Below are positions 19,053 through 61,774 of a DNA stretch of 64,000 nucleotides, in pieces (position 1 is the first letter of the stretch; each line of letters opens with the position of its first letter). The translations under genes and the position numbers were made by a program. The notes under the pieces were generated by a model that did not search any database, was not told where the DNA came from, and was given only the letters and a program-made list of their open reading frames with translations. This DNA comes from an uncultured Acidobacteriota bacterium (GTDB lineage Bacteria > Acidobacteriota > Thermoanaerobaculia > Multivoradales > JAGPDF01), in contig CAVOXC010000011.1 in the NCBI GenBank assembly GCA_963700315.1, positions 288,308-352,307 on the forward strand. The letters run 5' to 3'.

Positions 19053-22822
<3,770 letters not shown>

Positions 22823-23850
22823 TGGCTGTTCTCGTCCTTGAGCTCGAGCAACACGTCGTCGGTCTCGACCGCCGCGAGGAACTGTCCGAGGTAGTCGGGG
22901 TTCAGCCCGATCTTGATCGCCGCGCCGCCGAACTGGCAGGAGATGGTCTCCGAAGCCTCGCCCAGGTCGGGGTTGGCGGCCGCGATCGAGATCTCGCCGT
23001 CGGCGAACTCGAGCTTGACGCCCCGGTTGCGCTCGCCGGTCATCAGCGCCACGCGCTGCACGGCTTCGGCCAGGAGGCGGCGGCCGACCGTCACCTTCTT
23101 GTCGTTGCCGCGCGCGATCACCCGTTCGTAGTCCGGGAACGTGCCATCGAGCAGACGACAGATCATCTCCCGCTCGCCGCAGCGGAACGAGAGGTGGTGC
23201 TCGCCACGGCGCAACTCGACCGTCCCCTCGCCCTCGAAGCGCAGCAGCTCTTGCAGCGCCTTGCGCGGCACCAGGATCGAGTCCTCCGCCGCCGCGGCCG
23301 GCAGCGCGACATCGATCAGCGCCAACCGGTGCCCGTCGGTCGCGACCAGCTCGGCGCGCTCTCCTTTGAGGTGCAGGAGCGCTCCCGACAGCTGGAAGCG
23401 CGACTCCTCCGAGGAGACCGCGAACAGGATCTTGCTCACCAGGCGCCGGCAGGTCGCGAGCGGCAGCGTCAGCCGTGGCTTGCCTTCGACCGTCGGCAGC
23501 GTCGGAAAATCGGCCGACGGCAAGCCATGAATGCGAAAGCGTGAACGCCCAGCCGCCACCTTGAGCGAGCGTTCGTCCTCGAACGCCAGGTCGATCTCCT
23601 CGGCCGAGACGGCGCGGACGATTTCGCCGAACTTCTTGGCCTGCACCGCGAGCGCGCCCTCGCCCGTCACCTCGGCCGGAATCGAGGACGTCAACGACAC
23701 GTCGAGATCGGTCGCCGCGATGTGCAGCCGGCCGCCCTTGGCTTCGAGCAGCAGGTGCGAGAGCACCGGAATCGTCGTGCGGCGCTCGACGATCCCCTGC
23801 ATCGGCGCCAGCTCGGCCAGGAGGTCCTCACGCTTCAGGCGAAGTTCCAT

Positions 23851-24093
23851 CGGCTACTCCGATCGCTTGTCGAGACGGAAAAATAACATAGCAGTAGATA
23901 GTCGTAGATGCCTGCGGACAATTCGGAAAAGCGCCTTCGCGTTCGCTTCGACCGGGTCGCTGGCGTTCCGCAATGTGCGGAAAAGCACTGCGGAGAAGGC
24001 CCGGACGAACTGTGGAAAAGCGGGTCGGGAGAGGTTATCAACAAGTTGTCCACAACCGTTTTAGGCAGGGTTTTCCACACCTCGCGACCCACC
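23851..24093. other. Candidate chromosomal origin (oriC): DnaA-box cluster plus AT-rich patch in the dnaA-dnaN spacer
   Basis: DnaA-box-like 9-mers are TGTGGAAAA (24011-24019), TTATCAACA (24035-24043), TTGTCCACA (24046-24054) and TTTTCCACA (24071-24079), with degenerate ones near 23921-23930 and 23974-23984. The stretch GGAAAAATAACATAGCAGTAGATAGTCGTAGATG (23877-23910) is AT-rich in an otherwise ~70% GC sequence. Confidence 0.6.
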
Positions 24094-25392
24094 TCAAGAG
24101 AGGTGCTTGGTCATGTTCTCGAGCGTGCGCGCGAGCTCGGCGTTGCTGGCGCGCAGCTGCTCGATCTTCTCGACCGAGTACATCACCGTGGAGTGGTGCT
24201 TGTCGTTGAACTGCCGCCCGATCTCGGGATACGACAGCTCGGTGAGCTGCTTGCAGAGAAACATTGCGACCTGCCGCGGAAAGGCGATCTGCTTCGAGTT
24301 CGAGCGCGACTTGATCTCGCCGACCTTCAGTCCATAGTGACGCGCGACGAATTTGATGATCTCGGCCGCGCTGGCGCGCCGGCCGTTCTCGGGCAGGATG
24401 TCGCGCAGCGTTTCCTTGGCGAGATCGAGCGAGAGCGGCTTCGCGGTCAAGGAAGCGAATGCGGCCACACGGTTGAGCATCCCTTCTAGCTCGCGCACGT
24501 TCGACTTGACCTGATTCGCGATGAACAGCGCGACGTCGTCGGGCACACCGACACCGTCGAGGTCGGCCTTGCGCCGAAGGATCGCGATCTTGGTCTCGAG
24601 ATCGGGCGCCTGAATGTCGGCGATGAGCCCCCACTCGAAGCGCGAGCGCAAGCGCTCCTCGATCGACGGGATGTTGCGCGGCGAAGAGTCGGACGAAAGG
24701 ATGATCTGCCGCTGGCTGGTATAGAGCGTGTTGAAGGTGTGGAAGAACTCCTCCTGCGTCCGCTCTTTGTTGGCGAGGAACTGGATGTCGTCGACCAGCA
24801 GCACGTCGATCGAACGGTAGCGGTCGCGAAAGGACGGCATCGACTTGAAGCGCAGCGAGTTGATCAACTGATTGACGAACTGCTCGGCGGTCAGATACTG
24901 CACCTTGAGGCCGCGATGCTTGGCGAGAACCTGGTGGCCGATGGCGTGGAGCAGATGGGTCTTGCCCAGCCCCACCGGCCCATAGAGGAAGAGCGGGTTG
25001 TAGCTGCGCGACGGACTCTCGGCGACAGCGCGCGCGGCGGCGTGGGCGAACTGGTTCGAGCTGCCGACGACAAACGTCTCGAAGGTGTATTTTGGGTTGA
25101 GCCGCTCGAGGGTCCGCGGTTCGGCCGCGATGTCGCGCTCCTCGAGGCCGTCGTCGGCGGTGAGGAAAACCTGCAGGAGCTCGTCGGCGACCGCCGCGGC
25201 TTCGCGATCGATGAGGTGCCGGTAGCTCTCTTCGATGGTGTGGACGAAGCGGGCGTTGGGCGCGACCAGGACGAGCTCCTCGGGGGACTCGCTCTTGACC
25301 GCGAGCGGCGCGATCCAGGCCGAGTACTCCTCCGGCGGCAGCGCGCTGCGCAGCCCCTCGGCGATGCGCGGCCAGATGCGAGCTTCCGTCAC
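24094..25392 (-). CDS. dnaA: Chromosomal replication initiator protein DnaA
   Basis: AAA+ core LFLYGPVGLGKTHLLHAIG and DDIQFLANKERTQEEFFHTFN, and a C-terminal DNA-binding domain ELSYPEIGRQFNDKHHSTVMYSVEKI. GTG start. Confidence 0.97.
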   Translation of the reverse strand: MTEARIWPRIAEGLRSALPPEEYSAWIAPLAVKSESPEELVLVAPNARFVHTIEESYRHLIDREAAAVADELLQVFLTADDGLEERDIAAEPRTLERLNPKYTFETFVVGSSNQFAHAAARAVAESPSRSYNPLFLYGPVGLGKTHLLHAIGHQVLAKHRGLKVQYLTAEQFVNQLINSLRFKSMPSFRDRYRSIDVLLVDDIQFLANKERTQEEFFHTFNTLYTSQRQIILSSDSSPRNIPSIEERLRSRFEWGLIADIQAPDLETKIAILRRKADLDGVGVPDDVALFIANQVKSNVRELEGMLNRVAAFASLTAKPLSLDLAKETLRDILPENGRRASAAEIIKFVARHYGLKVGEIKSRSNSKQIAFPRQVAMFLCKQLTELSYPEIGRQFNDKHHSTVMYSVEKIEQLRASNAELARTLENMTKHLS

Positions 25393-25425: not shown

Positions 25426-25446
25426 ATTTCCACAGCTTGTGGAAAT
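25426..25446. promoter_or_regulatory. Perfect inverted pair of DnaA boxes upstream of dnaA (probable autoregulatory operator)
   Basis: ATTTCCACA-GCT-TGTGGAAAT, located 34 nt upstream of the dnaA GTG. Confidence 0.55.
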
Positions 25447-25508: not shown

Positions 25509-27230
25509 TCAGAACGGGCGCGCCAGCGCCGCCAGCTCGGGCGGCAGTTCGAGCTCGAGAGGGGCACGTGGCGTGGCGAGCCGCTCGAGCGCGGCGCGAA
25601 GGTCCATCGCGAGGCGCGGGCGTGTCGGGCCGGTGAGCCACTCCAACAGGCCCGGCGCCTTCGGCAGCAGCTCGATCTCGCCCGCGCCGGCGTCGAGCCC
25701 GGCCGCCGCCCGCGCCGCCGCGACTGCGTCGTCGAGGCCGCCGAGGCGGTCGACGAGGCCGGCGCCGAGGGCGTCCGCGCCGGTCCAGACGCGTCCCTGG
25801 GCGACCGCCTCGACAGCCACGCGGTCGAGGTCGCGACCGGCGGCGACGTGGTCGACGAAACGGCCATAGGTGGCGTCGAGGCGGCGTTGCATCAGCGCGC
25901 GCTCGCCGTCGTCGAACGGCCGCAGCCCTGAGTAGAGCCCGGCGTGGGCGCCGCGTCGAAGCGGATCGTGGGTCGCGCCGAGCAGCTCGCGCTGGAAGCG
26001 CTCGGTGGCAAGCTTGCCGGCGACGACACCGATCGAGCCGGTGAGGGTGCCCGCTTCGGCAAGGATCTGCTGCGCGCGCGCCGCGATGTAGTAGCCACCC
26101 GAGGCGGCGACGTCAGACATCGAGACGATGACCGGCTTGGCGCGCGCGAGGAGCTCGACCCGGCGCAAGATGAGATCCGAGGCGAGCGCCGATCCGCCCG
26201 GGCTGTCGACGCGCAGGACCACCGCCTTGACGTCGGTGTCCTCGGCGAGGTCCTCGAGTGTCTCGACGAGATCGTCCGAGCCGAGATAGAGCTCGCGGCT
26301 CCAGGGGTCGACGCCGGAGGCGCCGCGCACGATCGTGCCCTGGGCGAAGACGACGGCAACGCGCTCGCCCGAGCCTCCGCGCCGGCGCTCGGCACGTCGC
26401 CCGTAGGTGAGCAGGGACAAGCGCCGCGGGTCGTCTGCCAAACTCGCGAGGCGCTCTTCGAACTCGTCCGGGTAGGCGATCTGATCGATCAGGCCGGCGG
26501 CGACCGCTTCGTCGGCCGAGAGCGGGCCCCGATCGAACAGGGCGCGAACGCTCTCCCCGGGCAGGTGGCGGCTCGCGGCGATACCCGCGACCAGCGCGTC
26601 GAAGTAGCCGTCGAGGACGCTATCGAGCGCTTCGCGCGCGGCGACAGAGTGGCGCTCCTCGGTATAGGTCTCGGCCGCACTCTTGAACTTGCCGGCGGTC
26701 AAGAAGCTCGGTTCGATCTTCAACTTGTCGAGCGAGCCGCGCAGGAAAGCCTGGTCGAAAAAGAGACCGAGGAGGGCAACCTCGCCGGCGGGCGCCAGCG
26801 AGAGCACGGAGCAGGCCGACGCCACGAAGTACTCGAGCGTGCCGTTCGAGCCCTCTCCCGTGGACTCCAGGTAGCACTCGACCGGCTTGCCCGAGGCGGC
26901 GAAACGCTCGAGCAGGCGCCGCAGCTCCTGGGCCTTGGCGAGCCCGAAGCGGGCGTCGCGCACGTGCAGGGCGAGGCCGACCACCCGGTCGTCGTCGCGG
27001 GCGGCCGCGAGCGCCGTCCAGAGGCCGGCGAGACTCGGCTCGGGCTCGAGGCCGGGCAGCGGCAGTGGCGACGCGAGCGGAAAATCGGGCAACGGCGCAT
27101 CCAGCCGGTAGGTGAGCAGCGTCTCGCCCCCGGGCAGACCGCCCCGGCCGGCGGCGCCCACGAGGCCGAAGCCGGCGATGAGGGCGCCGACGAGAACGGT
27201 GGCGAGGAAGAGGAGAAATAAGCGGCGCAT
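25509..27230 (-). CDS. sppA: Signal peptide peptidase SppA (two S49 domains, 67K type)
   Basis: Start MRRLFLLFLATVLVGALIAG (ATG complement 27228-27230, GGAGG upstream). The S49 motifs are VVLRVDSPGGSALASD and a degenerate first copy. The 81 codons upstream in the track ORF cross a low-GC noncoding region. Confidence 0.85.
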   Translation of the reverse strand: MRRLFLLFLATVLVGALIAGFGLVGAAGRGGLPGGETLLTYRLDAPLPDFPLASPLPLPGLEPEPSLAGLWTALAAARDDDRVVGLALHVRDARFGLAKAQELRRLLERFAASGKPVECYLESTGEGSNGTLEYFVASACSVLSLAPAGEVALLGLFFDQAFLRGSLDKLKIEPSFLTAGKFKSAAETYTEERHSVAAREALDSVLDGYFDALVAGIAASRHLPGESVRALFDRGPLSADEAVAAGLIDQIAYPDEFEERLASLADDPRRLSLLTYGRRAERRRGGSGERVAVVFAQGTIVRGASGVDPWSRELYLGSDDLVETLEDLAEDTDVKAVVLRVDSPGGSALASDLILRRVELLARAKPVIVSMSDVAASGGYYIAARAQQILAEAGTLTGSIGVVAGKLATERFQRELLGATHDPLRRGAHAGLYSGLRPFDDGERALMQRRLDATYGRFVDHVAAGRDLDRVAVEAVAQGRVWTGADALGAGLVDRLGGLDDAVAAARAAAGLDAGAGEIELLPKAPGLLEWLTGPTRPRLAMDLRAALERLATPRAPLELELPPELAALARPF

Positions 27231-27300
27231 CGTGAGCCTCCGGACCGCAAAGATACCCTGCCCGGCGGGGTGGCGCGGGCGGCGACGGGGAATGAGACCC

Positions 27301-27318
27301 TTGGCACAGGCGTTGCTA
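27301..27318 (+). promoter_or_regulatory. Sigma-54 (-24/-12) promoter-like element
   Basis: T-TGGCAC-AGGCG-TTGC-TA. The GG at 27303-27304 and the GC at 27315-27316 are exactly 12 nt apart, matching the TGGCAC-N5-TTGC consensus. Confidence 0.5.
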
Positions 27319-27327
27319 CTGACAGTT

Positions 27328-27542
27328 GCAGGTAGAACGACTGCGTATGTGGGGAGGTTCCGCACTCCAGAACGTTTCCTACCTGAAGTAGGGGATCCGA
27401 GAGGATCCCAGCCCACTGACAACTCGCCAACCCCCCCTAACTTACAGGGGTAGAGCCACAGATCCCAACCCAAAGAAGGAACCTCCCCCCTACGGATTTT
27501 TCAAGATCGGCCCCGGGCATGTCCCGGGGCCGATCCTTGTTT
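27328..27542 (+). ncRNA. Candidate structured small RNA (~215 nt), family unknown
   Basis: A lower-GC noncoding island between divergent sppA and mutY. An 11-bp closing stem GGGGAGGTTCC (27351-27361) / GGAACCTCCCC (27478-27488) can be extended by CGTA/TACG. Internal hairpins lie at 27378-27392 and 27393-27408. The segment ends in an intrinsic-terminator-like hairpin. Confidence 0.4.
27505..27542 (+). terminator. Intrinsic-terminator-like hairpin
   Basis: GATCGGCCCCGGG-catgt-CCCGGGGCCGATC (13-bp perfect stem) followed by CTTGTTT. On the opposite strand the hairpin is followed by only TTGAAAAA. Confidence 0.55.
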
Positions 27543-27623
27543 GGGGCGCGGTTTGGGGCGGTCGCTCTGGCGCCGCGGGCAGCGCAGCGGCGCCAGAACG
27601 ACCCGATCTAGACTCCCAGCGCG

Positions 27624-28742
27624 ATGACGACGACCCTCGAGCCGGCCCCGAGCGGCAACGAGACCACGCCCCGGCTGCTCGCCTGGTATGACTGCGCCCG
27701 CCGGGACTTGCCGTGGCGGCGTCGGCGCGACCCCTGGGCGATCTGGGTCTCGGAGGTGATGCTGCAGCAGACCCGCGTCGAGGTGGTCGTCCCCTACTTC
27801 GAGCGGTTCCTGGACCGGTTTCCAGATTGCGCATGCCTCGCCGCCGCTCCGGTCGAGGAGGCGCTCGCGCTCTGGTCCGGTCTCGGCTACTACCGGCGCT
27901 GCCGGCAGCTGCACGCGGCGGCGGAGCGGGTCGTCGCCCTCGGCGGGGCGCTTCCGCAGCGCGCGGCGGCGCTCGAGCGGCTGCCGGGAGTGGGTCCGTA
28001 CACCGCCGCGGCGATCGCCTCGATCGCGTTCGGAGAGTCGGTGCCGGTGCTCGACGGCAACGTCGCGCGGGTGATGGCGCGGCGGCTGGCGCTCGACGCG
28101 GAGGTCGCGAGCGCGGCCGCGCGCCGTGAGCTCGCGGCCGCCGCCGCGACGCTGCTCGATCCGCGGCGCCCGGGCGATTCGAACCAGGCGTTGATGGAGC
28201 TCGGAGCGACGCTGTGTACGCCGCGCGCGCCGCGTTGCGAGGCCTGTCCGCTCGCCGAGGGCTGCCGCGGCCACGAAGCCGGGGAACCCGAGCGCTACCC
28301 CCGGCCGCGTCGCCGGCCGGCCGAAGTGGCGGTCACCCAGACCGCAGCGTTGGTGGAGCGCGGCGGGCGCCTGCTCTTCGTCCGCCGCGGCGCCGGCGAA
28401 GCTCAGCTTGCCGGGCTCTGGGAGTTGCCGACCGTCGAGGCGGAGAACGTGGCGGCGGAGCAGGCCTTTGCCGCCGCCTTCGGCGGGCGCTGGCGGCTCT
28501 CAAGCGAGCGGGTGCGGATGGCGCACGCGATTACCTTCCGCCGCATCTCGCTGTCAGCGCGCGGCGCCAGCTTCGAAGGAGAGGGGGTCGGCGAGGGGCG
28601 CGAGGCCGCGTGGCTGACACCGGCCGAGGCGCGCTCACGCCCGCTGACCGGGGCGAGCCGCAAACTGCTCGACCGGTTGGCGCCGCTCGCGCCGATCAGA
28701 GCGCGAAGCCGCCCGCGGGCCAGTTCCCGCCGGCGAGGATGA
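27624..28742 (+). CDS. mutY: A/G-specific adenine DNA glycosylase
   Basis: LLAWYDCARRDLPWRRRRDPWAIWVSEVMLQQTRV, an HhH-GPD region LPGVGPYTAAAI, an Fe-S cluster CTPRAPRCEACPLAEGC, and a C-terminal NUDIX-like domain. Confidence 0.92.
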   Translation: MTTTLEPAPSGNETTPRLLAWYDCARRDLPWRRRRDPWAIWVSEVMLQQTRVEVVVPYFERFLDRFPDCACLAAAPVEEALALWSGLGYYRRCRQLHAAAERVVALGGALPQRAAALERLPGVGPYTAAAIASIAFGESVPVLDGNVARVMARRLALDAEVASAAARRELAAAAATLLDPRRPGDSNQALMELGATLCTPRAPRCEACPLAEGCRGHEAGEPERYPRPRRRPAEVAVTQTAALVERGGRLLFVRRGAGEAQLAGLWELPTVEAENVAAEQAFAAAFGGRWRLSSERVRMAHAITFRRISLSARGASFEGEGVGEGREAAWLTPAEARSRPLTGASRKLLDRLAPLAPIRARSRPRASSRRRG

Positions 28743-29745
28743 ACCAGCCGACCAGCTTGTCGTCGATCTCACGCAGCCGCTTGGCGACCAGCCCGCAGAG
28801 TATGTGGAGGAGGCGCATCGAGGAGACCTTGCGCATGTCGAGCAGACCCTCGACGACGTCCTGGGGAATCGCGAGCACCACGGCGCCGCCGTCGTGCGCC
28901 TTGGCGAGGGCCGAGCGGGGCTGCCGGTCGATCAGCGCCATCTCACCGAAGTAGTCGCCACGTTCGAGGATAGCGAGCGCCTCTTCGCCGGCGCCCGGGA
29001 TCATCTTGCTGATCCGCACCCGCCCATCGAGCACGACGTACATCGCATCGCCCGGGTCGCCCTCGCGAAAGAGCACCTCGCCTGGCTTGAGCTTCTTCTC
29101 GCGCGACAGCGAGGTCAGGAAGTTGATCTCGAGCGAGGAGAGTTTCTGTTCGGTGAACAGATTGCGCTTGGCCGACAGATCGATGCGGAACTCGCCGCTC
29201 GGCGGCCGATCGCCCGGCCCGCCGGTGCGGGCCTCGGGGGGGCCCTGCGCGAAGAAGCGGACGAGCTTCTCGTTGGTGCGCCGCAGCTTGATCGAAAGCG
29301 CGCGCCAGAAGGCCCAGTAGAGCGCCATCGCCAGGCGCGGATCGCGCTCGAGGGCCTCGGCGATGGCTTCGTAGCCGAGAACGAGGAGCGTGCAGCGAGT
29401 CGTCGCCACCGCATTGCCGGCGCGTGCGGCGGCGTCGACGAAGCCGGCCTCGCCGAACAGATCGCCGGCGTCGAGCTGGGCGAGCGGAAAGAGACCGTAG
29501 GGGGTCGAACGCTGGATGCGCACGTGGCCGCTCTCGACGATGTAGGCCTCGCGGCCGGTCTCGCCGTGGCGCAGCACCAGCTCGCCCGAGGCGACCTCGC
29601 GGACGTCGAGGGCGGCCGCGAGCCGCTCGAGCTGCTGCGGGGCGAAATGCGAGAAGAGCGGGAAGCGAGAGATGCGATCAGGATCGACCACGGGAGGGGA
29701 GTCTAACGCCACTCTGGGGTGGACGGCGTCGCGCTCGCGTAGCAT
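28696..29745 (-). CDS. Protein with two cyclic-nucleotide-binding (CAP-effector) domains and no recognisable output domain
   Basis: The motifs GDLFGEAGFVD...RAGNAVA and GDYFGEMALIDRQPRSALAKA are two FGE...R(S/A)A phosphate-binding cassettes. The likely start is MLRERD (ATG complement 29743-29745). The upstream 74 codons of the track ORF would overlap truA. Confidence 0.75.
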   Translation of the reverse strand: MLRERDAVHPRVALDSPPVVDPDRISRFPLFSHFAPQQLERLAAALDVREVASGELVLRHGETGREAYIVESGHVRIQRSTPYGLFPLAQLDAGDLFGEAGFVDAAARAGNAVATTRCTLLVLGYEAIAEALERDPRLAMALYWAFWRALSIKLRRTNEKLVRFFAQGPPEARTGGPGDRPPSGEFRIDLSAKRNLFTEQKLSSLEINFLTSLSREKKLKPGEVLFREGDPGDAMYVVLDGRVRISKMIPGAGEEALAILERGDYFGEMALIDRQPRSALAKAHDGGAVVLAIPQDVVEGLLDMRKVSSMRLLHILCGLVAKRLREIDDKLVGWFILAGGNWPAGGFAL

Positions 29746-29778
29746 GCCGGCCGGCGAGCGAGGACAAGGGGGGCCGGC

Positions 29779-30699
29779 ATGCCCAGCTATCGGCTGACCG
29801 TGGAGTACGAGGGGACGCGCTACAGTGGCTGGCAGGAGCAAAAGAACGCGCGCACCGTAGCGGGCGAGCTGCGCCGCGCGCTCGAGGCGGCGGCGGGCGA
29901 GGCGGTCGAGCTCGGCGGTGCCGGCCGCACCGACGCCGGCGTTCATGCCGTCGCGCAAGTCGCGCATCTACGCGCGACGCGCCGCCTCGACGTCGACCGG
30001 GTCCGCTGCGCGACCAACGACGCCCTGCCTCCGGATATCCACCTGCTCTCGATCGCCCCGGCCGACGAGCGCTTTCACGCGCGCCACGGCGCCGCGTCGC
30101 GCGCCTATCTCTACCAGGTGGCGCGCCGCCGCACCGCCTTCGGCAAGCGCTTCGTCTGGTGGGTCGAGCGGCCGCTCGACCCCGGCGCGATGGCGGCAGC
30201 GGCCGCGCGCCTGCCGGGCCGCCACGACTTCGCGCGCTTCGCCGACAAGCGTGGCGAGGGCTCGACTCTCGTGGTAGTCGAGAGTGCCGAGATCGCCGCG
30301 GCGGGAGATCTCATCCTCTTCCGTATCGTCGCGTCGCACTTCCTCTGGAAGATGGTGCGACGCCTGGTCGGCGCGCTCGTCGAGGTCGGCGCCGGCGCGC
30401 TCGAGGTGGCGGCCTTCGGCGCGCTCGTCGAGGAGCCCGACGCCACGCACGGCTTCGAGCCGGCGCGCTCGACGGCGCCGCCGTCGGGACTCTTCCTCGA
30501 GCGCGTGCTCTATCCGGACGAGGACGCTCTCGGCGCGCTGGCGCCGGTGGTGCCGGTCGTCACGCCGGCGGGAGCAGCTCGAGCTGCGGCGAGCCCACCC
30601 GCTCCCAGGCGGCCGCCTCGACCCGGTCGAGCCAACCGTCGCGGTGCGCGGGGTCGAGGTGCAGGACCGGCAGGTCGCGCGCCGCGAGCTCGGCGCTGA
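29779..30699 (+). CDS. truA: tRNA pseudouridine(38-40) synthase
   Basis: YRLTVEYEGTRYSGWQEQ...GAGRTDAGVHAVAQVAHL contains the catalytic Asp motif RTDAGVH. The last ~45 codons are Arg/Pro-rich and run antisense to the next gene. Confidence 0.88.
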   Translation: MPSYRLTVEYEGTRYSGWQEQKNARTVAGELRRALEAAAGEAVELGGAGRTDAGVHAVAQVAHLRATRRLDVDRVRCATNDALPPDIHLLSIAPADERFHARHGAASRAYLYQVARRRTAFGKRFVWWVERPLDPGAMAAAAARLPGRHDFARFADKRGEGSTLVVVESAEIAAAGDLILFRIVASHFLWKMVRRLVGALVEVGAGALEVAAFGALVEEPDATHGFEPARSTAPPSGLFLERVLYPDEDALGALAPVVPVVTPAGAARAAASPPAPRRPPRPGRANRRGARGRGAGPAGRAPRARR

Positions 30700-35118: not shown

Positions 35119-35246
35119 CGAGCCGAGAACGAAGGGCTCCGGCACCCCTGCGGCACCCGGAGCGAGGACCTTATCGCTGCTCCCTTCCGGGCCTGACGAG
35201 GTTCGGAACCGTCCGATGCACAGGACCCGAGCCCTTCGTTCGCGGC
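35119..35246. repeat. Long-range inverted repeat (about 18-bp arms, ~85-nt loop) upstream of dnaX
   Basis: GCCGAGAACGAAGGGCTCCGG pairs with CCGAGCCCTTCGTTCGCGGC. Confidence 0.55.
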
Positions 35247-36604: not shown

Positions 36605-36696
<92 letters not shown>

Positions 36697-36733: not shown

Positions 36734-36823
<90 letters not shown>

Positions 36824-48734: not shown

Positions 48735-49152
48735 GGCCGGCGGAGCTTAACGCACGCGGCGTGCCAGCGTCGGCGCAAAGAATTCTGCGCGCGTCGAGTT
48801 GATTGGACGTCGCAGGGCGCGCCCCTTTCGCCGTCGCCCCGCCACCAGCCGGGCTCGGCCGTCCCCGCGGACGTCCAATGCCTTTGCCCGCCGCGCCGCT
48901 GCGGCAAAGCCCTGCCGACAGCACAAAACCATTGTGTTCAGGCACTTACGCTAACGCTTCGGATTTGGCAGGGGTCTTGATCTCGGTTCGGGCAACAACC
49001 ACCGGAGAGGAGGTGGCGGCGCCCCAGAGAGAAGAGACCGCAGTGCCCCGTCGGAACCGCAGTGAAGAAGTCGCCGGATCGGCCCGCCCCGTGGGCGGGC
49101 CGCCCAAACGCACGGCGGGTCGCCCCGCCATCGAAAGGAAGAGGAGATTGCA

Positions 49153-60097: not shown

Positions 60098-61774
60098 TCA
60101 GCGCGGCGCGCGAGCGGCGTCGATCTCGCCGCGGTCGCCGAGCAGCTCCCAGCGCTGGAGCGACAGTGGCACGTTGCCGTTCTTCCAGAGCGAGTCGTGA
60201 AAGCCGCGCAGCGAGAAGGCGGCGCCCTGAGTGATCCTGGCGTCGGCGAGAAGCCGGAGGATCTGCAGCTTGCCGATCTGGTACGAGATCGCCTGCCCTG
60301 GCGCCGAGGCGAAGAAGGCGGCTTCGGCGAGCGCGGTCTCCCGGTCCATTGGCACCTGGGTGGCGAGCAGGTCGGCGGCCGCCGCGATCGAAAGGTCGCC
60401 AATCGCCAGGCGGACGTCGACCTCGACCCGAAGGGCGCGCAAGCGAGCGAAGTTGTAGATGACCTCACGCACCCGCGGCCGATCGTCGAAGAGCCCGGCC
60501 TGGAGCATCAGCTCCTCGTTGTAGAAGGCGATCCCCTCGTTGGCGCCCGAGTCGTAGTAGTGGCGGCGGATCCAGTCCTCGTGCGCCCAGGAGAGGACGA
60601 GCTGGAGGTAGTGGCCATGGCTCTCGTGCGCGATCTGGGTACGCGGGTCGGCCGCGTAGGCCCGATAGAAGTAGCCGGCTTCGGGCGAGGGCTCGTCGAT
60701 CCAGGCGGTGCCGTCCTCGCCGAGCCGGGCCGGACCGGTGAAGTCGTTGTTGACCCCGAGCGCGGCGAGCGGCGCGAGGTACCCGGGCTTCGGCCGCAGC
60801 CGATAGAATTTCACCCAGGCGGGCACCGTCTGGATCCCCTCTCGTTCGAGAAAGCGGCGCACGGCGACCATGTCGCGCGCCATCGTCGCGACCTGTTGGT
60901 CGCGGTTGTCGGGCAGCGCGAGCGCAGGACGGCTGCGGTCGCGGTTGGCTTCGAGCGCCTCGAAAGCGACGGCGCGGTCCCACTCTTGCCGGCCCATTGC
61001 GACGAGTTGCTCTGGCGAGAAGGGGTAGAGCGCCACTTCGTGGAGGAAGTAGAGATAGGCGTCGCGGCCGACCGCGGTCTCCGCGCGGAATCCGGGCGCG
61101 GCCTCCCGTAGCCACTCGCGGTAGCGGGCGAGCGCCTCCGCCGCCGCGCGCGCCGCGGCGGGGAGCAACGCGGCGCGCGCGGGCGGCAGCTCCGGCGCGA
61201 GCTCGTGCGCCACGGTCGCGAGCTGGGTCTCGACCTCGGCGAGAGCGTCGAGCGCGAGACGCGCGAACGGGGCGCGGCCGTCCTCGAGGTTGGCGCGTGC
61301 CGCCGCGACCGTCGCGGGCACGCTCGCCAAGCGCGCGAGCACGCTCTCGGCACGGGCGGTGTCGAACGGCGGCGGCGCGAGCAGCGTCTCGAACAGCGCG
61401 CCCAGCGTCTGATCGACGTAGAAGAGGGGGTTGGTGCGCCAGGTCGGAGCGACCACGAGCTCCCAGCGGGCGCGCGCCAGCGCCGAACCGATCAGTCGAT
61501 GGTCGACTCGTCGCGCAATCGAACCGCTCTCGGGGTCGAGCGCGCGGAAGCGCGCCGCGAGCGTCTCGAGCTCGACGATGCGCCCGTCGATTCGCGCGCG
61601 CGACCAGTCCGGCGTCCAACCCGCCGGCCGATCGAGGCGCGGGATGTCGTCGCCGGACACCGGCTGATTCGCCGCGCGCCAGATCCAGAAGTCCCGGGCC
61701 ACCGTCTCGAGGTCTTCGGCGGCCGCGGGTGGGGCAAGGAGCGCGGCGAGGGCGAGAAGCGCGAGTGCGCGCAT
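60098..61774 (-). CDS. DUF885-family exported protein (putative metallopeptidase-like)
   Basis: Signal peptide MRALALLALAALLAPPAAA. IAHESHGHYLQ matches the HE..PGHH.Q-type DUF885 motif. About 560 aa. Confidence 0.7.
   Translation of the reverse strand: MRALALLALAALLAPPAAAEDLETVARDFWIWRAANQPVSGDDIPRLDRPAGWTPDWSRARIDGRIVELETLAARFRALDPESGSIARRVDHRLIGSALARARWELVVAPTWRTNPLFYVDQTLGALFETLLAPPPFDTARAESVLARLASVPATVAAARANLEDGRAPFARLALDALAEVETQLATVAHELAPELPPARAALLPAAARAAAEALARYREWLREAAPGFRAETAVGRDAYLYFLHEVALYPFSPEQLVAMGRQEWDRAVAFEALEANRDRSRPALALPDNRDQQVATMARDMVAVRRFLEREGIQTVPAWVKFYRLRPKPGYLAPLAALGVNNDFTGPARLGEDGTAWIDEPSPEAGYFYRAYAADPRTQIAHESHGHYLQLVLSWAHEDWIRRHYYDSGANEGIAFYNEELMLQAGLFDDRPRVREVIYNFARLRALRVEVDVRLAIGDLSIAAAADLLATQVPMDRETALAEAAFFASAPGQAISYQIGKLQILRLLADARITQGAAFSLRGFHDSLWKNGNVPLSLQRWELLGDRGEIDAARAPR

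What the first reader, a model, noticed from the sequence alone, without database searches (positions are those of the whole stretch)
27301..27542. Candidate sigma-54-dependent structured small RNA between sppA and mutY
The 390-bp sppA-mutY spacer contains a distinctly lower-GC block with three features. First, it has a near-consensus -24/-12 element, TGGCAC-AGGCG-TTGC, with GG and GC exactly 12 nt apart. Second, about 12 nt downstream begins a segment that can fold into an 11-bp closing stem (27351-27361 with 27478-27488, extendable by CGTA/TACG) around several short hairpins (27378-27392, 27393-27408, about 27434-27450). Third, it ends in a 13-bp perfect GC hairpin followed by CTTGTTT. The segment stops 80 nt before mutY, which has no known leader regulation. 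I could not match it to 6S, SRP, RNase P or tmRNA signatures. Sigma-54-driven sRNAs are known in other phyla (Qrr, GlmY, Pxr), so a new family is plausible.
Basis: partly seen in the sequence, partly recalled or inferred. Interest (0 to 1): 0.65.

Follow-up and report, generated by a model that had tools for sequence, protein, structure and literature searches.

The report
New sigma-54-driven small RNA family
The spacer upstream of mutY holds a real, conserved gene for a structured non-coding RNA of about 215 nt with a sigma-54 promoter, the founding example of an undescribed RNA family found, often as tandem arrays, next to the replication-origin genes of Thermoanaerobaculia-type Acidobacteriota; what it regulates is unknown.

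Summary
At 27302-27542 (+) there is an exact TGGCAC-N5-TTGC element (0.07 expected per window), a three-way-junction RNA fold, and a 13-bp terminator. No Rfam 15 family matches it.

A homologous element lies upstream of mutY in 4 Thermoanaerobaculia MAGs. A search pattern taken only from the RNA body found about 35 more loci in metagenomes. A covariance model then found 68 copies, including tandem arrays of 2-3.

The promoter was in neither the pattern nor the model. Even so, 63 of 64 non-redundant copies carry GG-N10-GC 22-33 nt upstream of the model start (43 nt in one copy). Stems P1 and P2 covary (96.6% of cells paired, 12 of 18 pairs with double changes, 0 of 500 shuffles as good). G-U pairs fix the strand.

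The context is always recF-dnaN-dnaA-(sppA, rimK genes or nothing) | RNA(s) | mutY. mutY has its own -10 box just before its start codon, so the RNA is not its leader.

Best reading: an enhancer-binding-protein/sigma-54-controlled, trans-acting sibling sRNA with C-rich, G-poor single strands. The activator, the signal and the targets are unknown. Neither rpoN nor an activator gene is in the window.

This is a new member of a known kind, of moderate to high interest.

The parts
27302..27317 (+). Sigma-54 (-24/-12) promoter, TGGCAC-AGGCG-TTGCT
   Evidence: Only exact match in the window, 0.07 expected. The same element (GGCAC(G)-N4-(g)TTGCA) sits 22-33 nt upstream of the model start (43 nt in one copy) in 63 of 64 non-redundant family copies.
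27327..27330 (+). Predicted transcription start (conserved GCA, 12-14 nt after the -12 GC)
   Evidence: GCA is invariant in the 5-genome alignment, and a gGnCA signal appears at this distance in the 55-copy promoter alignment. The start is inferred, not mapped.
27344..27361 (+). 5' strand of closing stem P1 (GGGGAGGTTCC, 27351-27361) plus outer extension CGTA (27344-27347)
   Evidence: Pairs with 27478-27494. P1 has 5 of 8 modelled pairs with double changes. The extension covaries among the Thermoanaerobaculia loci.
27362..27391 (+). C/A-rich, G-poor single-stranded linker holding CCUACC (27378-27383)
   Evidence: CCnaCC is conserved in the family consensus. Unpaired interior columns are 13.5% G, 36.5% C and 31% A.
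27392..27409 (+). Hairpin P2 (GGGATCC-GAGA-GGATCCC)
   Evidence: All 6 modelled pairs show compensatory changes; 96.5% of cells are paired.
27410..27433 (+). Second C-rich single-stranded linker
   Evidence: Family alignment.
27434..27450 (+). Hairpin P3 (CCCCT-loop-AGGGG)
   Evidence: Invariant stem. This is partly by ascertainment, because it was in the search pattern. It is also invariant in the 5 loci found through mutY.
27444..27459 (+). Most conserved box, ACAGGGGTAGAGCCAC (3' strand of P3 plus its 3' flank)
   Evidence: ACAGGGGTAGA-N-CCA (27444-27458) is invariant across the 5 genomes found independently of it, and ACAGGGGTAGAnCC is kept in most of the 68 copies.
27460..27477 (+). Third C/A-rich linker with CCAACC (27465-27470)
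   Evidence: CCAACC is nearly invariant in the family consensus.
27478..27494 (+). 3' strand of P1 (GGAACCTCCCC, 27478-27488) plus TACG (27491-27494)
27505..27542 (+). Intrinsic terminator (13-bp stem, loop CATGT, tail CTTGTTT)
   Evidence: Terminator hairpins differ in sequence but are present in the 4 genome relatives and in 30 of 63 copies under a strict test.
27560..27603 (.). Inverted repeat between terminator and mutY. It contains a degenerate copy of the family-wide palindrome GCCA-N3-TGGC (27592-27602). Not part of the RNA.
   Evidence: Sequence. The motif is concentrated in the RNA-mutY spacer of relatives. Its role is unresolved.
27609..27614 (+). Putative mutY -10 box (TAGACT), 9 nt before the ATG at 27624. 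It marks the RNA and mutY as separate transcription units.
   Evidence: TAGACT, TAGAAT, TATACT or TACACT lies 6-12 nt before the mutY start in most related loci, and no Shine-Dalgarno sequence is seen. This is an inference.

Best explanation
The region 27302-27542 (+) is a free-standing gene for a non-coding RNA of about 215 nt.

RNA polymerase with sigma-54 would bind the -24/-12 element and stay closed until an enhancer-binding protein, not yet identified, opens it in response to a signal. Transcription would start near 27328 and stop at the hairpin at 27505-27542.

The RNA folds into a three-way junction: closing stem P1, hairpin P2 and hairpin P3. The arms are joined by long C/A-rich, G-poor single strands that carry recurring CC-N2-CC motifs (CCUACC, CCAACC). 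There is also an invariant ACAGGGGUAGAnCC box.

It most likely acts in trans as a regulatory small RNA. The accessible C-rich strands would pair with G-rich stretches of target mRNAs. In relatives, 2-3 tandem sibling copies, each with its own sigma-54 promoter, would add their doses, as the Qrr RNAs do.

Shown here:
- the promoter motif and its conservation;
- the fold and its covariation;
- the strand;
- the family, its arrays and its fixed genomic position.

Inferred:
- that it is transcribed;
- the transcription start;
- dependence on an activator.

Guessed:
- base-pairing as the mode of action;
- the targets and the signal.
For: Promoter:
- Exact TGGCAC-N5-TTGC, 0.07 expected per window.
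- Homologues were found by synteny and with a pattern taken only from the RNA body.
- The model R1 covers only P1 to P1'. Even so, 63 of 64 non-redundant copies have GG-N10-GC with at least 8 of 11 consensus matches, 22-33 nt upstream of the model start (43 nt in one copy).

Structure:
- 96.6% of cells paired, against 46-72% when partners are slid.
- 12 of 18 pairs have double changes, and 0 of 500 shuffles do as well.
- The independent MAFFT/RNAalifold alignment gives 10 of 18 pairs with double changes.

Strand:
- Many G-U and U-G pairs (for example 42 G-U at one P1 pair) would be A-C mismatches on the other strand.
- Every full-length hit faces the same way as its promoter, its terminator and mutY.

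Independent gene:
- It has its own terminator.
- Each copy in a tandem array has its own promoter.
- A mutY -10 box lies downstream of the terminator, 6-12 nt from the start codon.
- In L099 the RNA is kept although mutY is gone.

Other points:
- Unpaired regions are only 13.5% G.
- No Rfam family, tRNA or tmRNA matches.
- Sigma-54 and its activators are nearly universal in diderm bacteria with LPS (PMC3162934).
Against: - There are no expression data.
- No rpoN gene, activator (GAFTGA) gene or RpoN box was found in the six-frame translation of the window or of any related locus.
- No conserved palindromic upstream activating sequence was found. The divergent sppA start lies only about 70 nt from the -24 element.
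- About half of the copies lack a canonical terminator, including the last copy before mutY in several arrays. Read-through into mutY is therefore possible.
- Nothing shows base-pairing. The C-rich motifs are not a perfect anti-Shine-Dalgarno sequence, and my duplex scan of the window was uninformative.
- The strict adjacency to mutY across relatives whose MutY is 48-70% identical to the window's is not explained by a purely trans-acting role.
Confidence: 0.6

Rival explanations
1. It is a protein-sequestering (sponge) RNA. The transcript and promoter are the same, but the repeated single-stranded CC-N2-CC motifs and the invariant ACAGGGGUAGAnCC hairpin would be binding sites that titrate an RNA-binding protein. 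CrcZ does this with Hfq/Crc and GlmY with RapZ, and both are sigma-54-dependent.
For: Four to six conserved C-rich motifs sit in G-depleted linkers. The most conserved element is a hairpin plus its flank rather than an open seed. Multiple tandem copies would raise titration capacity. That known sigma-54 sRNAs include two protein decoys is from my own knowledge.
Against: No candidate protein is linked to the locus. The repeated motif is short and degenerate (CCUACC, CCCACC, CCAGCC, CCAACC). There are far fewer repeats than in CsrB or RsmZ-type sponges. Nothing here tests binding.
Confidence: 0.2
2. It acts in cis on the downstream gene. The sigma-54 promoter or promoters and the RNA would form a conditional upstream transcription unit. 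Read-through, or promoter occlusion, would tune mutY (A/G-mismatch glycosylase) expression under a particular stress. The RNA body would be a processed or attenuating leader.
For: Of the 36 homologous loci that extend far enough to show the downstream gene, 35 have the RNA directly upstream of mutY and co-oriented with it. The upstream neighbour varies: sppA, rimK genes or dnaA. The last copy in many arrays has no recognisable terminator. Conserved DNA motifs occupy the RNA-mutY spacer.
Against: The window copy has a strong terminator. mutY carries its own -10 box 6-12 nt before a start codon without a Shine-Dalgarno sequence, as in a leaderless mRNA, so a read-through transcript would translate it poorly. 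Each array copy has its own promoter, and most have a terminator. L099 keeps the RNA without mutY. The whole dnaA-to-mutY neighbourhood is syntenic in this clade, so the adjacency may simply be inherited.
Confidence: 0.12
3. It is a ligand-sensing riboswitch-like element: a three-way-junction aptamer with conserved junction nucleotides, followed by a terminator as its expression platform.
For: The architecture is a P1-closed three-way junction with an invariant 14-nt box, followed by a terminator and then a gene.
Against: Each tandem unit has its own sigma-54 promoter. The long unstructured, variable C-rich linkers are unlike a compact aptamer. No alternative pairing between P1 and the terminator is conserved. 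The downstream gene has its own promoter-like elements. No Rfam riboswitch matches.
Confidence: 0.04
4. It is not an RNA gene. It would be a DNA-level element of the origin-proximal region, such as a cluster of protein-binding sites or an oriC accessory sequence, whose palindromes only look like RNA stems.
For: The locus lies about 3.3 kb from a DnaA-box cluster and beside dnaA in all relatives. Its GC content is lower than that of the flanks.
Against: There are no DnaA boxes in the spacer. Stems keep pairing through compensatory changes and through G-U pairs that work on one strand only. The composition has a strong strand-specific C-over-G skew. Each unit is bracketed by a promoter and a terminator in the same orientation.
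Confidence: 0.03

Closest known systems
Qrr1-5 quorum-regulatory sRNAs of Vibrio (my own knowledge; Qrr is an Rfam family)
   Same: Sigma-54 promoter activated by an enhancer-binding protein. Several sibling copies per genome that are thought to act additively or redundantly. Each ends in an intrinsic terminator.
   Different: No sequence or structure match. Qrr RNAs are about 100 nt with four stem-loops, and the copies are dispersed, with qrr1 beside its activator gene luxO. Here the RNA is about 190-215 nt with a three-way junction, the copies are tandem at a single locus, and no activator gene is nearby.
GlmY/GlmZ (Enterobacteriaceae) and CrcZ/CrcY/CrcX (Pseudomonas): sigma-54-dependent protein-decoy sRNAs (my own knowledge; PMC3045617 was listed but not read)
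   Same: Sigma-54-dependent structured sRNAs, some with repeated single-stranded motifs. CrcZ-type genes also occur as paralogues.
   Different: No homology detected. Those genes sit next to their two-component or activator genes (glrK-glrR, cbrB). Their motifs are A-rich (CrcZ), not CC-N2-CC. Their protein partners are known, whereas none is known here.
Pxr sRNA of Myxococcus and other Cystobacterineae (my own knowledge)
   Same: A lineage-restricted sRNA with a predicted sigma-54 promoter, stem-loop architecture and tandem duplicates in some genera.
   Different: No match in the Rfam scans. Pxr is shorter, lies next to an activator gene (nla19), and has no link to dnaA or mutY.
CcsR1-4 ('cuckoo') RNAs of Rhodobacter and other tandem sibling sRNAs such as PrrF1/2, OmrA/B and AbcR1/2 (my own knowledge)
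   Same: Tandem arrays of homologous sRNAs. CcsR RNAs expose C-rich anti-G motifs.
   Different: Those use sigma-70, RpoH, Fur or OmpR-type promoters, not sigma-54. CcsR RNAs are co-transcribed with a small protein gene. No sequence similarity.

Membership tests
Sigma-54 (-24/-12) promoter class | GG and GC dinucleotides with a fixed 10-nt gap, in the TGGCAC-N5-TTGCW context | tested here: met
   Exact match at 27302-27317, 0.07 expected per window.
Sigma-54 (-24/-12) promoter class | Element conserved in position and sequence in orthologues, more than the flanking DNA | tested here: met
   63 of 64 copies carry it, 22-33 nt before the model start (43 nt in one copy). Information content peaks at GGCAC and TTGCA while the flanks are uninformative.
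Sigma-54 (-24/-12) promoter class | The genome encodes RpoN and at least one enhancer-binding protein | not testable with these tools
   No RpoN box or GAFTGA motif in the 64-kb window or in the loci held. The rest of the genome is not available. There is only general support from PMC3162934.
Sigma-54 (-24/-12) promoter class | Enhancer (UAS) for the activator within looping distance | tested here: inconclusive
   No conserved palindrome upstream. A conserved palindrome, GCCA-N3-TGGC, lies downstream of the RNA or array, but its role is unknown.
Trans-acting bacterial sRNA gene | Own promoter and own terminator, non-coding, in an intergenic region | tested here: met
   Promoter and terminator. 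Indels break any reading frame across homologues. The downstream gene has a separate -10 box.
Trans-acting bacterial sRNA gene | Conserved secondary structure supported by covariation | tested here: met
Trans-acting bacterial sRNA gene | A detectable transcript, and targets elsewhere in the genome | not testable with these tools
   No expression data and no full genome. The duplex scan of the window was uninformative.
Any Rfam 15 family (including 6S, SRP, RNase P, tmRNA and whichever of Qrr, GlmY/Z, CrcZ and Pxr the library holds) | Covariance-model score at or near the family's gathering threshold | tested here: not met
   Nothing at gathering score in the region. With E up to 10, only hits of 12-21 bits appear, all far below their thresholds of 45-100 bits. 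They fall on the terminator hairpin, the downstream inverted repeat, a short stretch of the minus strand or the start of mutY, and none matches the RNA fold. Nothing on six array loci. ARAGORN finds no tRNA or tmRNA.
6S RNA | Rod-like fold in which the 5' and 3' halves pair around a central bubble | tested here: not met
   Both halves of the interior are C-rich and G-poor, so they cannot pair with each other. The consensus is a three-way junction.
Riboswitch or 5' leader of mutY | The element lies within the 5' UTR of the regulated gene, transcribed from that gene's promoter | tested here: not met
   The mutY -10 box lies after the terminator, 9 nt from the ATG. Array units each have a promoter. 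In L099 the RNA is present without mutY.

The most novel reading that the evidence does not exclude
The RNA array, the conserved palindrome downstream of it and the mutY promoter would form one regulatory module placed beside the replication-origin genes. A single enhancer-binding protein bound to the shared downstream GCCA-N3-TGGC site or sites would fire all the sigma-54 promoters of the array. At the same time it would sit on the mutY promoter. A stress signal would thus be coupled both to a burst of sibling sRNAs and to a change in 8-oxoG mismatch repair, giving regulated mutation avoidance or stress-induced mutagenesis.
Probability: 0.1. Interest if true: 0.85.

Novelty: new member of a known kind. 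Interest (0 to 1): 0.6.

Why it matters
Acidobacteriota are among the most abundant soil bacteria, yet almost nothing is known about their RNA regulators, and very few sigma-54-dependent sRNAs are known outside Proteobacteria and Myxococcota.

This family comes with unusually clean computational support:
- 68 copies;
- a promoter conserved independently of how the copies were found;
- covarying stems;
- tandem sibling arrays.

It also has a fixed address next to dnaA and mutY. That gives a direct handle on an unknown sigma-54 signalling pathway in a largely uncultured class. The cognate activator can be sought by phylogenetic profiling and the targets by comparative prediction.

If the link to mutY is functional, it would connect a signal-dependent promoter class to mutation avoidance.

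Tried and rejected
- Rfam at gathering score and at E up to 10, on the window and on six array loci: no meaningful family.
- ARAGORN: no tRNA or tmRNA.
- Idea that GGTAGAGC marks a tRNA-like D-arm: no supporting T-arm or acceptor pairing is conserved, and ARAGORN finds nothing. Dropped.
- Idea of a pseudoknot between CCUACC and GGGGUAG: GGGGUAGA is invariant while CCUACC varies (CCCACC, CCAGCC and others) without compensation. Dropped.
- oriC hypothesis: the DnaA boxes cluster in the dnaA-dnaN spacer (24011-24079) and just upstream of dnaA, not in the RNA spacer.
- Search for an activator or rpoN by signature peptides in six frames of the window and the loci: nothing.
- Search for an upstream UAS by aligning promoter-upstream regions: only the divergent gene's -10-like box, plus a GGAAT-N9 motif in some copies.
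- Whole-RNA duplex prediction against gene starts in the window: it gave meaningless global duplexes and was abandoned.
- Recovering the source contig through exact-protein look-ups with MutY and DnaN: not on record.
- Literature searches for the sequence strings and for sigma-54 sRNAs in Acidobacteria: nothing relevant.
- Profile HMM and covariance-model searches of 60 other mutY loci (Terriglobia, Bryobacterales, Planctomycetota and others): no copies.

Full report
**What is in the window**

The spacer 27231-27623 lies between sppA and mutY. sppA is on the minus strand (25509-27230, Peptidase_S49). mutY is on the plus strand (27624-28742, HhH-GPD plus NUDIX_4). The spacer contains a block of 56-61% GC in a 70-78% GC background.

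TGGCACAGGCGTTGCT at 27302-27317 is the only exact TGGCAC-N5-TTGC in the 64 kb. Shuffles give 0.07 expected. With one mismatch allowed the pattern is no longer unusual: 3 found against 2.25 expected.

The + strand from about 27326 to 27545 folds at -88.6 kcal/mol, with z = -3.56. The fold has:
- closing stem P1 (27351-61 with 27478-88);
- an outer CGTA/TACG extension;
- hairpin P2 (27392-27409);
- hairpin P3 (27434-27450);
- a 13-bp terminator at 27505-27535 followed by CTTGTTT.

The reverse strand folds about as well, so the fold alone does not settle the strand. No Rfam 15 family matches at gathering score. At E up to 10 there are only hits of 12-21 bits, far below their thresholds, and none matches the RNA fold. 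ARAGORN finds nothing.

**Relatives found by synteny**

A scan of one genome per GTDB species with MutY returned 64 loci. The closest MutY proteins (55-69% identity) belong to Thermoanaerobaculia MAGs (Acidobacteriota). nhmmer with the spacer hit exactly those four loci (L001, L002, L003, L011), each just upstream of mutY.

In the alignment, GGCAC-N5-TTGCT is invariant. So is GCA 12-14 nt after the -12 GC, and so is a 14-nt box, ACAGGGGTAGA-N-CCA. The stems and terminators differ in sequence but keep their pairing. RNAalifold finds 13 of 37 pairs with compensatory changes.

**Relatives found without using the promoter**

I scanned the JGI metagenome collection with a pattern taken only from P3 and the conserved box (CCCCT-N4-10-ACAGGGGTAGANCCA). 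It returned 49 stretches of DNA.
- About 35 are clear homologues with the same P1, P2 and P3 layout.
- The rest are chance matches: an archaeal-looking group (L068, L102, L105, L106) and a few singletons.

A covariance model covering only P1 to P1' (R1) then found 68 copies in 40 sources. The window has one copy. The model found none in the other 60 mutY loci (Terriglobia, Bryobacterales, Planctomycetota and others).

Fifteen loci carry tandem arrays of 2-3 copies: L066, L067, L069, L070/L089, L083, L091, L092, L094, L096, L097, L098, L104, L109, L110 and L111. Copies are usually spaced about 220-290 nt apart.

**The promoter is a hallmark of the family**

Neither the search pattern nor R1 contains the promoter. 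Of 64 non-redundant copies with enough upstream sequence, 63 carry GG-N10-GC with at least 8 of 11 matches to TGGCAC-N5-TTGCA. In 62 of them the -12 GC lies 22-33 nt before the model start, and in one (L088) 43 nt before it.

In a 55-copy alignment anchored on the promoter, information is concentrated on GGCAC(G) and (g)TTGCA. There is a weaker gGnCA signal where the start site is expected.

In arrays the promoter follows the preceding terminator by only about 30-45 nt. That leaves no room for another promoter type.

**The structure is real and the strand is +**

On the 68-copy alignment, 96.6% of cells form standard pairs. When the partners are slid by 1-3 columns the figure falls to 46-72%. 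Twelve of 18 pairs show changes on both sides, and no shuffle out of 500 reaches any of the five measures.
- All 6 pairs of P2 covary.
- P1 has 5 of 8 pairs with double changes.
- P3 never varies, which says nothing either way. This is partly ascertainment, but it also holds in the loci found by synteny.

That alignment is fitted to the model, so it leans towards the structure. The independent MAFFT/RNAalifold analysis of 37 sequences gives 10 of 18 pairs with double changes.

Frequent G-U and U-G pairs (for example 42 G-U at one P1 position) would be A-C mismatches on the opposite strand. All full-length hits face the same way as promoter, terminator and mutY. The RNA is therefore read from the + strand.

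The interior unpaired columns are 36.5% C, 31% A and only 13.5% G. They carry conserved CC-N2-CC motifs (CCUACC, CCAACC, CCAGCC).

**Genomic address**

In the window the gene order is:
- recF (about 21836-22723, minus strand);
- dnaN (22738-23850, minus strand);
- dnaA (24094-25392, minus strand);
- sppA (minus strand);
- the RNA (plus strand);
- mutY (plus strand).

The same macro-synteny holds in nearly all related loci. Between dnaA and the RNA there is sppA, a rimK-type gene set, or nothing.

Four DnaA boxes cluster in the dnaA-dnaN spacer (24011-24079), and an inverted pair lies upstream of dnaA (25426-25446). There are none in the RNA spacer. The RNA gene is therefore close to the origin (about 3.3 kb) but is not oriC.

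mutY follows the RNA or array on the same strand in the window, the 4 genome loci and the 30 distinct metagenome loci with a MutY match, that is in every locus that extends far enough, with one exception. The exception is L099, where a P-loop ATPase gene and a cNMP-binding-protein gene follow instead.

**The RNA is not the mutY leader**

Most loci have a -10-like hexamer (TAGACT, TAGAAT, TATACT or TACACT) 6-12 nt before the mutY start codon, with no Shine-Dalgarno sequence. That is the signature of a leaderless mRNA with its own promoter. In the window it is TAGACT at 27609-27614, 9 nt before the ATG.

Three further points argue for an independent gene:
- the terminators;
- the one-promoter-per-copy arrays;
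- L099, which keeps the RNA without mutY.

One caveat remains. Only 30 of 63 copies pass a strict terminator test, and the copy nearest mutY in several soil arrays has none. Read-through coupling cannot be excluded there.

**What could not be shown**

- There is no expression evidence.
- No upstream activating palindrome is conserved.
- The only general support for sigma-54 in this organism is that sigma-54 and its activators are almost universal in diderm bacteria with LPS (PMC3162934).
- Mode of action and targets are unknown. My duplex scan was uninformative.

**Interpretation**

The evidence strongly supports a new family of sigma-54-transcribed, structured non-coding RNAs, at about 0.85-0.9 for that part alone. 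How it acts is a guess.
- I rank trans-acting base-pairing through the C-rich strands first. This is by analogy with C-rich sRNAs and with the additive Qrr siblings.
- Protein sequestration comes second, by analogy with CrcZ and GlmY.
- Cis coupling to mutY comes third.

**An unexplained companion feature**

The spacer after the last RNA copy carries a conserved palindrome, GCCA-N3-TGGC. A strict form occurs upstream of mutY in 19 of 36 RNA-bearing loci against 2 of 60 RNA-less mutY loci. Of 49 hits in 271 kb, 38 fall in that spacer.

A second motif, wTGACGCrnyGCGGCA, lies 16-26 nt further on. I saw this motif by eye in the sequences. Both motifs persist in L099, where mutY is gone.

They may be an operator of the downstream promoter. 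Alternatively they may be a shared downstream enhancer for the array, which would also explain the missing upstream UAS and the fixed adjacency. This was not resolved.

**Novelty**

Sigma-54-dependent sRNAs are a known kind (Qrr, GlmY/GlmZ, CrcZ, Pxr). This family has no detectable homology to any Rfam 15 family. I found no paper describing it. I therefore class it as a new member of a known kind. Its unusual traits are the tandem arrays at one fixed origin-proximal locus and the tight linkage to mutY.

Noticed in passing
window 24011-24079 and 25426-25446: Four DnaA-box-like 9-mers (TTTTCCACA, TTATCAACA, TTGTCCACA, TTTTCCACA) lie in the dnaA-dnaN spacer, and an inverted pair (ATTTCCACA) lies just upstream of dnaA. 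The window therefore probably contains the chromosomal origin. Cumulative GC skew has its minimum near 10-12 kb rather than here.
   Followed up: partly
window 27560-27603; related loci, e.g. L066 10367, L096 746, L111 767, L099 345: A conserved palindrome, GCCA-N3-TGGC, lies between the last RNA copy and the next gene. In the window it is degenerate and sits inside a 44-bp inverted repeat. A second motif, wTGACGCrnyGCGGCA, lies 16-26 nt downstream of it. Both are kept in L099, where mutY is replaced. Possible operator or shared sigma-54 enhancer.
   Followed up: partly
window 27609-27624 and the mutY starts of related loci: mutY appears to be leaderless. A -10-like hexamer (TAGACT, TAGAAT or TATACT) lies 6-12 nt before the ATG or GTG, and there is no Shine-Dalgarno sequence.
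   Followed up: partly
about 11-15 nt upstream of the -24 element; window 27289-27293: GGAAT lies 9 nt before the GG of the -24 element in the window and in a minority of the 55 aligned copies, roughly 10-15 by eye (for example L002, L093, L107, L108, L094, L104, L109, L111). Its meaning is unknown.
   Followed up: no
L066 10878-11015, L067 3519-3653, L092 1309-1444, L096 1064-1198, L109 1596-1732, L111 105-244: The first copy (farthest from mutY) in several arrays is a divergent paralogue scoring 32-41 bits. It keeps P1, P2 and a CCCC/GGGG hairpin but lacks the GGGGTAGA box. This suggests subfunctionalisation within arrays.
   Followed up: no
window 35133-35232 (-), 36605-36691 (+), 36734-36820 (+): A small bacterial SRP RNA, and two 87-nt tRNA genes whose length suggests long-variable-arm tRNAs.
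   Followed up: no
window 48752-48766 (-) and 60350-60364 (+): Two one-mismatch matches to TGGCAC-N5-TTGC (both lose a T of TTGC). This number is what chance gives, and their context was not examined.
   Followed up: no
L068, L102, L105, L106 (around the pattern match, e.g. L102 4649-4711): Four metagenome contigs share a nearly identical, lower-GC segment containing GCCCCTGGCGACAGGGGTAGAGCCACTGCGG. It is unrelated to the family (17.5 bits with R1). L068 and L106 were scanned against Rfam at gathering score and gave no match. It may be another conserved element.
   Followed up: partly
window 28696-29967 (-); L099 917-2053: In the window a protein with two cyclic-nucleotide-binding domains (Pfam) is encoded next to mutY. 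In L099 an ORF that looks similar by eye lies about 0.7 kb downstream of the RNA, next to the ATPase gene that replaces mutY.
   Followed up: no
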